A DNA stretch of 48,818 bases from a virus. The notes beneath the pieces were generated by a model. That model had not been told where the DNA came from, did not search any database, and saw only the letters and a program-made list of their open reading frames with translations. Below, in pieces: positions 48,152 to 48,250 of the stretch. How positions within the stretch are numbered: position 1 is the first letter of the stretch; each line of letters starts with the position of its first letter. The stretch covers positions 1-48,818 of the IMG/VR virus record IMGVR_UViG_3300028832_000018. One strand, given 5' to 3'. A program made the translations under genes and the position numbers.

Positions 48152-48250
48152 AAGACACATACAGCAAAATAATTTAGTAGTCTAATGGTTAGACATTTGC
48201 TCCACAATCGCAAACAATATTGGTTCGAATCCAATCTAAAAACGTGTCTT
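48152..48250 (+). ncRNA. Y-RNA-like unit B enclosing a normal-order tRNA mimic
   Basis: Closing helix aagacac/gtgtctt. AT-ACAGCAAAA at 48159-48169. Inside are a D-arm gtct-aatggtt-agac, the stem tttgc/gcaaa with a 9-nt loop tccacaatc, a T-arm attgg-ttcgaat-ccaat, and an acceptor whose top has two A.A mismatches. Confidence 0.55.

What the first reader, a model, noticed from the sequence alone, without database searches (positions are those of the whole stretch)
48152..48250. Unit B: a normal-order tRNA look-alike locked inside a Y-type stem, with a 9-nt anticodon-like loop
Inside the aagacac/gtgtctt helix and the ACAGCAAAA motif lies a complete cloverleaf in the usual order, with good D- and T-arms. 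The top two acceptor pairs are A.A mismatches. There is no CCA and no free 5' or 3' end. The anticodon stem tttgc/gcaaa carries a 9-nt loop (tccacaatc) instead of 7 nt, without U33 in register. The loop-to-stem block CAATCGCAAA recurs in unit D (46071-46080), embedded in a 12-of-13 nt match. This suggests it is a conserved recognition element rather than an anticodon. The unit could act as a decoy or substrate mimic for tRNA-targeting enzymes.
Basis: partly seen in the sequence, partly recalled or inferred. Interest (0 to 1): 0.7.

Follow-up and report, generated by a model that had tools for sequence, protein, structure and literature searches.

The report
tRNA-shaped cargo in phage Y-like RNA
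The element is a tRNA look-alike clamped inside a conserved stem-plus-ACAGCAA "handle", one cassette in an array of small RNAs next to a phage gene for a Ro60-like RNA-binding protein; it belongs to a widespread family of Y-RNA-like tRNA mimics that I could not find described, and it is wired the opposite way round from the known bacterial ones.

Summary
Positions 48152-48250 hold a 7-bp helix (AAGACAC/GTGTCTT), an ACAGCAAAA motif, and a normal-order cloverleaf. The cloverleaf has intact D and T arms, a 5-bp acceptor-like stem topped by two A.A mismatches, a 9-nt "anticodon" loop and no CCA.

It is not an isolated oddity. The adjacent 453-aa protein (Pfam DUF2828/DUF7788) has a Ro60 fold (TROVE ring plus vWA domain). 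Next to its homologues, 251 distinct units in 106 of 117 sources share the same handle: AAGRCNC, 0-3 nt, ACAGCAA ... GNGYCTT-G. The cargos vary. They include permuted YrlA-like tRNA mimics (window unit C), normal-order tRNA mimics like unit B, bare anticodon-stem-loop mimics (units A and D), and pyrimidine-rich cargos.

A covariance model built without the window finds unit B full-length at 77.5 bits. Covariation supports every helix that was tested.

The 9-nt loop and the CAATCGCAAA block are not conserved. Other normal-order units mostly carry 7-nt anticodon-type loops.

Best reading: unit B is a Y-RNA-like ribonucleoprotein cassette that displays a tRNA shape, acting as a decoy or as a tether for a tRNA-binding factor. 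It is a new variant of the Ro60/Y RNA (YrlA) theme. Its function is untested.

The parts
48152..48158 (+). Handle, 5' strand (AAGACAC). It matches the family consensus AAGRCNC.
48161..48169 (+). ACAGCAA(AA) motif in the internal loop directly above the handle helix. Candidate protein-recognition site.
   Evidence: In the family, C, G, C, A, A at motif positions 2, 4, 5, 6, 7 were fixed by the search pattern. Positions 1 and 3 are A in 94% and 86% of units. A strict closing helix is found for 103 of 245 plus-strand motifs, 1 of 117 minus-strand motifs and 34 of 2450 shuffles.
48171..48242 (+). tRNA-shaped cargo in normal order. Acceptor-like stem 48173-48177 with 48236-48240 (5 bp, plus two A.A). 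D arm 48180-48194. Anticodon-like arm 48196-48214 with 9-nt loop 48201-48209. Variable region 48215-48218. T arm 48219-48235.
   Evidence: ARAGORN. Rfam tRNA 41.4 bits over model positions 3-68. Model R1. Covariation in A3. U8, A14, G18G19, A15:U48, T54-Psi55-C56 and A58 are all present by inspection.
48244..48251 (+). Handle, 3' strand GTGTCTT, plus the conserved unpaired G at 48251.
   Evidence: G follows the 3' strand in 91% of 251 units, and the strand ends in TT in about 82-91%.
48047..48132 (+). Unit A. Same handle (AAAGGTC/GACCTTT) and ACAGCAA. The cargo has two hairpins, one of them cgaaCUGAAAAuucg, which is a Phe(GAA)-type anticodon loop.
   Evidence: Orthologues in L033 and L035 carry CUGAUAA instead.
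48272..48391 (+). Unit C. Handle AATGCCC(GT)/(AT)GGGCATT plus ACAGCAA. The cargo is permuted (T arm, closed acceptor hairpin, D arm), which is the YrlA-like topology.
   Evidence: Weak Rfam YrlA match at 48293-48398, 28.3 bits against a gathering score of 69, E 0.0028..
45984..46136 (+). Unit D, upstream of the gene. Outer 12-bp stem 45984-45995 with 46125-46136. Inner handle 46020-46026 with 46117-46123. ACAGCAA at 46030. The cargo includes caaaaAUUGGGAuuuug, a Pro(UGG)-type anticodon loop.
   Evidence: Conserved in L033, L035, L001 and L030.
46137..46172 (+). Terminator-like hairpin plus T run directly after unit D and before the ribosome-binding site of the Ro60-like gene.
46196..47557 (+). 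Gene for the 453-aa DUF2828/DUF7788 protein, which has a Ro60 fold (TROVE-like helical ring plus vWA domain with MIDAS motif DTSGS).
   Evidence: Pfam. PHROG 850. Profile hit to the Ro60 vWA domain, E 1e-5. AF2 model with pLDDT 81 and Foldseek, where the top 13 PDB hits are all Ro60/TROVE.
47559..48017 (+). 152-aa ORF of unknown family between the gene and the RNA array. Conserved in the closest relatives.
   Evidence: No Pfam, PHROG or NCBIfam hit. 62-69% identity to the ORFs at the same position in L033-L035.
48007..48035 (+). Promoter-like site (TTGCAA, 17 nt, TATAAT with TG) 12 nt upstream of unit A. Probable start of an A-B-C-tRNA transcript.
   Evidence: This is a consensus match only, and the number of such matches in the region is not above shuffles. 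A similar tgcTATAAT precedes the first unit in L001.
45942..45970 (+). Promoter-like site (TTGACA, 17 nt, TAGAAT with TG) upstream of unit D.
   Evidence: Consensus match only.
48398..48726 (+). Four genuine tRNA genes (Ile-GAU, Ser-ACU, His-GUG, Glu-UUC), all with encoded CCA, immediately downstream of unit C.

Best explanation
Unit B is one cassette of a phage-encoded array of Y-RNA-like small RNAs (units A, B and C downstream of a Ro60-fold protein gene, and unit D upstream).

Each cassette has the same handle: a 7-9-bp terminal helix with consensus AAGRCNC/GNGYCTT, an unpaired G after the 3' strand, and an ACAGCAA motif in the internal loop above the helix. I infer that the neighbouring DUF2828 (Ro60-like TROVE plus vWA) protein binds this handle. 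This would be analogous to Ro60 binding the stem and CGAA-type motif of Y RNAs.

The handle carries an exchangeable cargo. In unit B the cargo is a complete tRNA-shaped module attached through its acceptor end. It keeps the D/T 'elbow' and an anticodon-like arm, but it cannot be a translation substrate: the acceptor stem is 5 bp, there are no free ends and there is no CCA.

The RNP would therefore present a tRNA shape to tRNA-recognising factors. It could act as a decoy or competitive inhibitor for host tRNA-targeting enzymes, or as a tether that brings a tRNA-binding enzyme to the Ro60-like protein.

The array is probably co-transcribed with the downstream tRNAs and cut out of the precursor.

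Shown here: the architecture, family membership, covariation, the protein fold and the genomic association.
Inferred: protein binding to the handle, transcription and processing, and the decoy or tether role.
For: Unit B as a family member:
- The cloverleaf and handle are in the sequence.
- The leave-one-out covariance model finds unit B full-length at 77.5 bits. Genuine tRNAs match it only locally, at 27-39 bits.
- In 100 sources, 20 hits (19 distinct sequences, 13 of them the model's own seeds) are full-length at 60 bits or more.

Covariation in 14 normal-order units:
- 92.9% of cells are paired, against 32-48% when partners are slid.
- 15 of 23 pairs change on both sides.
- The handle helix is 95% paired and the D and T arms 98%.

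The handle across the family:
- 251 distinct units in 106 of 117 sources that encode a homologue of the protein at 24-100% identity. These include chromosomal loci of Ruminococcus, Butyrivibrio and Oscillospiraceae.
- It is strand-specific and far above shuffles.
- Its consensus is given.

The protein:
- Foldseek's top 13 PDB hits are all Ro60/TROVE over about 500 columns.
- A profile hit to the Ro60 vWA domain has E 1e-5.

Precedents:
- YrlA tRNA mimics lie next to Ro60 and are co-transcribed with tRNAs (PMC4201824).
- Thermus phage phiLo Ro60 binds two adjacent Y-like RNAs that carry a motif in an internal bulge, and it recruits host PNPase (PMC12135203).

Support for a tRNA-mimic role:
- Anticodon-loop-like and T-loop hairpins are strongly enriched in the cargos. 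Y-U-NNN-R-N loops number 94 against 21 in shuffles, Pro-like loops 15 against 0.8, and T-loops 71 against 3.5.
Against: - No expression, processing or binding data exist. Protein-handle binding rests on co-occurrence only.
- In the reverse test, only 22 of 64 viral loci found by the handle pattern had the gene within the DNA held for them. All 22 were on the same strand. The rest are short excerpts of 70-190-kb contigs.
- The motif ACAGCAA differs from the Ro60-binding GNCGAA/CGAA motif. Pfam TROVE itself is not hit.
- Unit B is absent from the closest relatives, so it is dispensable for the system.
- Its 9-nt loop is atypical for the class and lacks U33. This weakens a specific 'anticodon-nuclease decoy' reading for this particular copy.
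Confidence: 0.62

Rival explanations
1. Unit B is a genuine tRNA precursor. The handle is just a paired leader and trailer. RNase P and RNase Z with the CCA-adding enzyme release a tRNA with an expanded anticodon loop that functions in translation (for example unusual decoding).
For: It passes Rfam's tRNA gathering score (41.4 bits) and ARAGORN. The elbow nucleotides are intact. It sits in a tRNA gene cluster. M. smegmatis YrlA is cut by RNase P and receives CCA.
Against: - Only 5 acceptor pairs plus two A.A mismatches.
- No encoded CCA, although all four neighbouring tRNAs encode it.
- A 9-nt loop without U33.
- Across the class the acceptor-like stem is consistently 4-5 bp.
- The same handle encloses cargos that are not tRNA-like at all.
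- The Rfam alignment is local, covering model positions 3-68.
Confidence: 0.06
2. The handle is a protein-independent RNA element. It would be a nuclease-resistant clamp or processing punctuation that stabilises or separates small RNAs and tRNA-like pieces in polycistronic phage transcripts. Its linkage to DUF2828 would be indirect.
For: 42 of 64 handle-pattern loci had no DUF2828 gene in the DNA held, in one case (L126) with about 6 kb of flank on each side. The units are separated by AU-rich spacers and abut tRNAs.
Against: - 106 of 117 sources with the gene have units, down to 24-29% protein identity.
- All 22 co-located cases are on the same strand, mostly within about 0.05-2.6 kb (up to 7 kb).
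- A conserved single-stranded motif and a conserved unpaired G point to sequence-specific recognition.
- The Ro60/Y RNA precedent applies.
Confidence: 0.12
3. Unit B is a decaying passenger: a tRNA gene fragment captured in a Y-like cassette by recombination. It would be on its way out and have no function of its own.
For: Array content is fluid, and the closest relatives lack a B-type unit. The loop is aberrant at 9 nt. The 11-mer shared with unit D suggests recent recombination. It has the lowest tRNA score in the cluster.
Against: - All helices and all elbow nucleotides are intact.
- It scores 77.5 bits against a class model built from other loci.
- The class as a whole shows compensatory changes that preserve the D, T, acceptor-like and handle helices, which indicates selection on the fold.
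Confidence: 0.12
4. The repeats act at the DNA level, for example as recombination or attachment sites or as a miniature mobile element, and not as RNAs.
For: The units are repeated and shuffled between genomes.
Against: - Strong strand asymmetry: 103 plus-strand helices against 1 on the minus strand.
- The units are co-oriented with the gene and with the tRNAs.
- Covariation preserves RNA helices while the sequences diverge.
- The cargos have tRNA-like tertiary-interaction nucleotides.
- Promoter-like sites lie upstream.
Confidence: 0.03

Closest known systems
YrlA (Y RNA-like A; Rfam RF02553) with bacterial and mycobacteriophage Ro60/Rsr
   Same: A small RNA encoded beside, and on the same strand as, a Ro60-fold protein. 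A terminal stem carries a conserved 5'-side motif. The effector module mimics tRNA with near-canonical D and T arms. Several such RNAs occur per locus and are often co-transcribed with tRNAs (PMC4201824; bioRxiv 10.1101/312249).
   Different: - Known YrlA is circularly permuted (T arm, closed acceptor hairpin, D arm). It has no anticodon loop and joins the Ro60-binding stem at the anticodon-stem position. Unit B has normal order, keeps an anticodon-like arm and joins the handle at the acceptor end.
- The motif is ACAGCAA, not GNCGAAN0-1G.
- The partner protein is Pfam DUF2828/DUF7788, not TROVE.
- The Rfam YrlA model does not match unit B, and it matches unit C only at 28 bits.
Thermus phage phiLo Ro60 with Yrl1 and Yrl2 (PMC12135203; PDB 9KOP, 9L5Y)
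   Same: A phage-encoded Ro60-fold protein with adjacent Y-like RNAs whose 5'-3' stem flanks an internal bulge that carries the recognition motif. It is among the best structural matches to the window protein.
   Different: The phiLo RNAs carry a CGAA motif and, in the passages read, are not described as tRNA-like. There are two RNAs, not an array of exchangeable cassettes. About 12-13% sequence identity in the structural alignment.
Other tRNA mimics (tmRNA tRNA-like domain, plant-virus 3' TLS, mascRNA-type lncRNA 3' ends)
   Same: An L-shaped tRNA elbow used to engage tRNA-recognising proteins outside decoding.
   Different: Those mimics have, or acquire, a free CCA 3' end and are aminoacylated or cut by RNase P/Z. 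Unit B's ends are locked in a helix and its acceptor stem is only 5 bp.
Genuine phage tRNA genes (Rfam RF00005)
   Same: Cloverleaf order, conserved D- and T-loop nucleotides, and a location in a tRNA cluster.
   Different: Truncated acceptor stem, no CCA, a 9-nt loop, and embedding in the family handle.

Membership tests
tRNA (RF00005) | Score at or above Rfam's gathering threshold with the cloverleaf model | tested here: met
   41.4 bits against 29, but a local alignment over model positions 3-68. Neighbouring tRNAs score 55-71 bits.
tRNA (RF00005) | 7-bp acceptor stem with a free 5' end and a discriminator plus CCA 3' end | tested here: not met
   5 bp plus two A.A mismatches. No CCA, whereas all four neighbouring tRNAs encode it. 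Both ends run into a 7-bp helix. Actual processing cannot be tested here.
tRNA (RF00005) | 7-nt anticodon loop with U33 and a purine at position 37 | tested here: not met
   9-nt loop UCCACAAUC with C at the second position.
tRNA (RF00005) | Elbow and tertiary-interaction nucleotides (U8, A14, G18G19, 15:48, T54-Psi55-C56, A58, G53:C61) | tested here: met
   All are present by inspection of 48171-48242. Position 21 is U, not A.
YrlA / bacterial Y RNA (RF02553) | Encoded within a few kb of a Ro60 (TROVE plus vWA) protein gene and on the same strand | tested here: met
   595 nt downstream of a Ro60-fold gene on the same strand. The protein is DUF2828/DUF7788 by Pfam, not TROVE.
YrlA / bacterial Y RNA (RF02553) | 5' and 3' ends pair into a stem that carries the Ro60-binding motif GNCGAAN0-1G | tested here: not met
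   The terminal stem is present, but the conserved motif is ACAGCAA and lies in the loop above the stem.
YrlA / bacterial Y RNA (RF02553) | tRNA-like domain in permuted order (T arm, closed acceptor hairpin, D arm) with no anticodon loop | tested here: not met
   Unit B has normal order (D, anticodon-like arm, T). Unit C next door does have the permuted order.
YrlA / bacterial Y RNA (RF02553) | Rfam score at or above the gathering threshold (69 bits) | tested here: not met
   No YrlA match to unit B at E up to 10. Unit C scores 28.3 bits.
YrlA / bacterial Y RNA (RF02553) | Bound and stabilised by the Ro60 protein in vivo | not testable with these tools
   Needs RIP/CLIP, EMSA or a knockout.
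Ro60 / TROVE protein family (for the partner protein) | Ring of helical repeats plus a C-terminal vWA domain with a MIDAS motif | tested here: met
   AF2 model with pLDDT 81. Foldseek's top 13 hits are all Ro60/TROVE, E 9e-9 to 6e-6, TM about 0.4-0.55 over about 500 columns. D277-x-S279-x-S281 is conserved. The profile matches the Ro60 vWA domain at E 1e-5.
Ro60 / TROVE protein family (for the partner protein) | Match to Pfam TROVE (PF05731) | tested here: not met
   Only DUF7788, DUF2828 and a sub-threshold vWA_Ro60 hit are listed at E up to 0.1.
DUF2828-associated 'ACAGCAA-handle' RNAs (family defined here) | Handle AAGRCNC ... ACAGCAA ... GNGYCTT-G enclosing a cargo, next to a DUF2828 gene on the same strand | tested here: met
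   Unit B matches the consensus at every conserved position. A leave-one-out model gives 77.5 bits.

The most novel reading that the evidence does not exclude
DUF2828 proteins and ACAGCAA-handle RNAs form a previously unrecognised, very widespread Ro60/Y-RNA-like system in gut Bacillota and their phages. In this system one protein-binding handle displays a swappable library of mimics of cellular RNA parts: whole tRNA shapes in two topologies, bare anticodon stem-loops of specific isoacceptors (often with A34), and pyrimidine-rich cargos that resemble the 16S 3' end. Phage arrays such as A-B-C-D would then work as anti-defence sponges or baits against host nucleases that cut tRNA anticodon loops or rRNA. 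Unit B would be the whole-tRNA bait.
Probability: 0.2. Interest if true: 0.85.

Novelty: new variant of a known kind. Interest (0 to 1): 0.7.

Why it matters
Ro60/Y RNA complexes are conserved from bacteria to humans, yet what the tRNA-like module of bacterial Y RNAs binds is still unknown.

This locus points to a second and much larger branch of that system. At least 7854 DUF2828 proteins scored E <= 1e-10 in one search. The RNA partners appear to be undescribed: Rfam has no match and my literature searches for 'DUF2828' found nothing relevant.

These partners are modular. A constant handle carries tRNA mimics in both the permuted and the natural topology, as well as isolated anticodon-loop mimics. 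That modularity gives a direct experimental route: swap the cargo, keep the handle, and ask what the tRNA-like part recruits or blocks. It also links phage tRNA clusters to Ro60-type RNPs, which could bear on the conflict over tRNA-targeting host defences.

Tried and rejected
1. INPHARED phage DNA search found no relative of the region except the genuine tRNAs.
2. An exact-pattern search for B's loop region in viral contigs found nothing.
3. A sequence search of the protein against the PDB gave only noise. A family profile was needed.
4. The single-sequence AF2 model was useless (pLDDT 39). The MSA-based model was good.
5. The first lenient helix criterion had a 29% background in this AT-rich DNA, so I replaced it with a strict one.
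6. I tried to use G.U against A.C mismatches in the handle to prove the transcribed strand. There were too few internal mismatches to decide.
7. Literature searches for DUF2828, for ROT/TROVE and for a tRNA-like decoy with anticodon nuclease found no prior description of these RNAs. The Burroughs and Aravind NAR 2016 paper and the Sim et al. 2020 review were not held.
8. I considered a T-box-like 'codon display', because CAC (the His codon) occurs in the loops of the window, L001 and L052 copies. I rejected it as post hoc, since a 3-nt match is expected by chance at about 0.1 per loop.
9. I rejected the idea that the CAATCGCAAA block is a conserved recognition element.

Full report
OBSERVATION

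AAGACAC (48152-48158) pairs with GTGTCTT (48244-48250). ACAGCAAAA lies at 48161-48169. Between them is a cloverleaf in the normal order:
- Acceptor-like stem TTTAG/CTAAA (48173-48177 with 48236-48240), topped by two A.A oppositions.
- U8 and A9.
- D arm GTCT-AATGGTT-AGAC.
- Stem TTTGC/GCAAA closing the 9-nt loop UCCACAAUC.
- A 4-nt variable region.
- T arm ATTGG-TTCGAAT-CCAAT.

There is no CCA. All four genuine tRNAs just downstream (Ile, Ser, His, Glu) encode CCA.

ARAGORN calls the element a tRNA by centring an anticodon in the 9-nt loop. Rfam's tRNA model gives 41.4 bits, above the gathering score of 29, but only as a local match to model positions 3-68. The neighbours score 55-71 bits. The minimum-free-energy fold recovers the closing helix, the 9-nt-loop hairpin, the T arm and a D-region hairpin in a slightly different register, but not the AU-rich acceptor-like stem. 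The nucleotides needed for the tRNA elbow (U8, A14, G18G19, A15:U48, T54-Psi55-C56, A58, G53:C61) are all present.

SURROUNDINGS

The ORF at 46196-47557 encodes a 453-aa protein. It matches Pfam DUF7788 and DUF2828, matches the Ro60 vWA domain below threshold, and matches PHROG 850 'RNA-binding protein'.

A family profile hits the vWA domain of Xenopus and human Ro60 as the best PDB sequence matches, at E about 1e-5. An AlphaFold2 model built with a 49-sequence alignment has pLDDT 81. Foldseek's top 13 PDB matches to it are all Ro60/TROVE structures over about 500 columns. They include the Ro60 of Thermus phage phiLo, Xenopus and human Ro60, and D. radiodurans Rsr. The MIDAS motif DxSxS is conserved. 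The neighbour is therefore a Ro60-fold protein from a family that Pfam files separately from TROVE.

Four units in the window share the 'stem plus ACAGCAA' architecture:
- D (45984-46136), upstream of the gene and followed by a terminator-like hairpin.
- A (48047-48132).
- B (48152-48251).
- C (48272-48391).

Unit C has the permuted order T arm, closed hairpin, D arm. It gets a weak Rfam YrlA match (28.3 bits, gathering score 69). Promoter-like sites precede D and A. These are consensus matches only.

COMPARATIVE EVIDENCE

Thirty-two viral contigs, four closer metagenomic contigs and 80 genome contigs encode homologues of the protein at 24-84% identity.

Using a strict criterion (at least 7 Watson-Crick pairs with at least 3 G-C pairs, ending no more than 4 nt upstream of [AT]C[ATC]GCAA), a closing helix is found for:
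- 103 of 245 plus-strand motif occurrences,
- 1 of 117 minus-strand occurrences,
- 34 of 2450 shuffled controls.

Over all sources there are 251 distinct units in 106 of 117 sources. These include chromosomal loci of Ruminococcus, Butyrivibrio and Oscillospiraceae.

The handle has a consensus: (A)AAGRCNC, 0-3 nt, ACAGCAA ... GNGYCTT, followed by G in 91% of units. Unit B matches it at every conserved position. The first 37 sources alone yielded 44 different 7-nt stem sequences, so the helix is maintained by covariation.

Cargos fall into classes:
- 21 permuted, YrlA-like.
- 25 normal-order (D arm, hairpin, T arm), like unit B.
- 25 with a T arm only.
- 180 without a T arm.

Many of the last class are short hairpins whose 7-nt loops look like anticodon loops. 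Y-U-NNN-R-N loops number 94 against 21 in shuffles. Pro-type xU-NGG-G loops number 15 against 0.8. Phe GAA-type loops number 7 against 0.1. Window unit A carries cgaaCUGAAAAuucg and unit D carries caaaaAUUGGGAuuuug.

IS UNIT B A MEMBER OF A REAL CLASS?

An alignment of 14 normal-order units, scored against the handle, acceptor-like, D and T helices, gives:
- 92.9% of cells paired, against 32-48% with partners slid and 71% in column shuffles.
- 15 of 23 pairs with changes on both sides.

A covariance model built from the 13 units of other loci (window excluded) finds 48152-48251 as its best window hit. The match is full-length (model 1-100) at 77.5 bits, E about 1e-15. The genuine tRNAs match only the internal cloverleaf, at 27-39 bits. 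Across 100 sources, 20 hits (19 distinct sequences, 13 of them the model's own seeds) are full-length at 60 bits or more.

WHAT IS NOT CONSERVED

- The closest relatives of the window (78-84% protein identity; L033-L035) keep units D and A, C-like units, the small ORF and the tRNA-His/Ser(ACU)/Glu cluster. They have no B-type unit, so array content is fluid.
- The nearest B-type relatives (L001 4679-4775 and L052 1370-1469) share the D arm type. They carry the 7-nt loop CUAUCAC on a CUUGC/GCAAG stem.
- Of the 25 normal-order units classed, only the window copy was scored with a 9-nt loop. One further unit, L063, folds with 9 unpaired nt, or 7 nt if a U.U pair closes the loop. Most others have 7-nt loops such as CUGAUAA, CUGAAAA, CUAGGAA, CUAAAAA and UUCGGGA.
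- The exact 11-mer ACAATCGCAAA shared by B and D is unlikely by chance within this genome (4 of 2000 shuffles). In D it belongs to D's own conserved hairpin, and it is absent from B-type relatives. It looks like a local recombination trace and not a recognition element.
- The two A.A 'mismatches' are the beginning of the internal loop. Acceptor-like stems of 4-5 bp (TTAG/CTAA type) are the rule in the class.

INTERPRETATION

Known bacterial Y RNAs (YrlA) sit beside Ro60 and have a terminal stem with a 5'-strand motif (GNCGAAN0-1G). Their tRNA-like module is a circularly permuted tRNA with a closed acceptor stem and no anticodon loop. They are often co-transcribed with tRNAs (PMC4201824; bioRxiv 10.1101/312249). 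A phage Ro60 (phiLo) binds two adjacent Y-like RNAs through a motif in an internal bulge and recruits host PNPase (PMC12135203).

The present system has the same logic with different parts:
- a different branch of the Ro60 fold (DUF2828);
- a different motif (ACAGCAA);
- arrays of cassettes;
- in unit B, the opposite topology, with a natural-order tRNA shape plugged in through its acceptor end and keeping an anticodon-like arm.

I therefore read unit B as the RNA part of a Ro60-like RNP that presents a tRNA shape. Binding of the protein to the handle, co-transcription with the tRNAs, and the decoy or tether role are all inferences.

For this copy, the aberrant 9-nt loop argues that any function lies in the elbow and overall shape, not in an anticodon-specific contact.

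RIVALS

- Genuine tRNA precursor. Disfavoured by the 5-bp acceptor stem, the absence of CCA, the 9-nt loop, and the sharing of the handle with cargos that are not tRNA-like.
- Protein-independent stabilising or processing element. Not excluded. In a reverse search with the handle pattern, only 22 of 64 viral loci had the gene within the DNA held. All 22 were on the same strand, and the rest are short excerpts of very large contigs.
- Decaying passenger. Countered by intact helices and class-wide compensatory changes.
- DNA-level repeat. Countered by the strand asymmetry and RNA-type covariation.

NOVELTY

Rfam 15 has no family matching units A, B or D, or the chromosomal versions, apart from 'tRNA' for the normal-order cargos. 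Literature searches for DUF2828 returned nothing relevant. [quoted passage not shown]

I rate this a new variant of a known kind (Ro60/Y RNA, YrlA-type tRNA mimicry). The specific new points are the handle, the cassette arrays and the natural-order topology. The family is large: at least 7854 proteins scored E <= 1e-10 in one search.

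Noticed in passing
window 48476-48565; also L033 3263-3351, L034 3847-3936, L035 5414-5501: A class II tRNA-Ser with anticodon ACU (loop CUACUAA, A at wobble position 34) is conserved in the window and in its three closest relatives. A34 is very unusual in bacterial-type tRNAs other than Arg-ACG. Several normal-order tRNA-like cargos also have A34 versions of ordinary anticodon loops (CUAGGAA, CUAGUAA, CUAAAAA, CUAUCAC).
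   Followed up: partly
window 47559-48017: A 152-aa ORF with no Pfam, PHROG or NCBIfam match lies between the Ro60-like gene and the RNA array. Its C-terminal ~100-125 residues are 62-69% identical to ORFs at the same position in L033, L034 and L035. It is a possible third component of the system in this subclade.
   Followed up: partly
window 45942-46195: Unit D has its own promoter-like site (45942-45970). It is followed by a terminator-like hairpin plus T run (46137-46172) just before the ribosome-binding site of the Ro60-like gene. This layout would allow the protein to autoregulate by binding the handle in its own leader.
   Followed up: no
L010 6135-6236, L011 6155-6253, L018 3814-3944; L120, L121, L124, L126 and about 20 more loci; window 46045-46055 (TACCTCCAAT in unit D): Many handle-enclosed cargos are pyrimidine-rich and contain ACCTCCTTTCT or CTCCTTTCTTTCTACCTCCCTTTCT. 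These resemble the 3' end of 16S rRNA (the anti-Shine-Dalgarno sequence). They may be rRNA-tail mimics, or the counterpart of the pyrimidine-rich loops of YrlB and metazoan Y RNAs.
   Followed up: no
window 11888-11956: Rfam finds a further tRNA-like sequence (47.1 bits) that ARAGORN does not call. It lies far from the tRNA cluster and has no ACAGCAA handle.
   Followed up: no
window 48047-48132 (unit A) and 46071-46095 (unit D); L033 2536-2608, L035 4839-~4905 (end approximate: the automatic parse joined it to the next unit): Units A and D carry bare hairpins whose 7-nt loops are those of specific tRNAs: CUGAAAA (Phe-GAA) in A and AUUGGGA (Pro-UGG with G37) in D. Unit A's orthologues carry CUGAUAA (Ile-GAU) instead, so the displayed 'anticodon' changes between close relatives.
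   Followed up: partly
L117 7523-8001, L118 7318-8001, L064, L082 2419-2519: In Ruminococcus and Oscillospiraceae the DUF2828 gene is a stand-alone gene among housekeeping genes (L117 is from a genome assembly, L118 from a metagenome scaffold), with a 480-680-nt gene-free leader. Loci such as L082 carry handle units upstream of the gene, including normal-order tRNA-like ones. The system is therefore cellular as well as viral.
   Followed up: partly
L005 4273-4395, L009 5216-5335, L010 5864-5985, L030 5801-5921, L052 1210-1330: A sub-class of normal-order units has an extra hairpin (for example aggcaNNNNNtgcct) inserted in the 5' strand of the acceptor-like stem, together with Phe-GAA or Ile-GAU type loops.
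   Followed up: no
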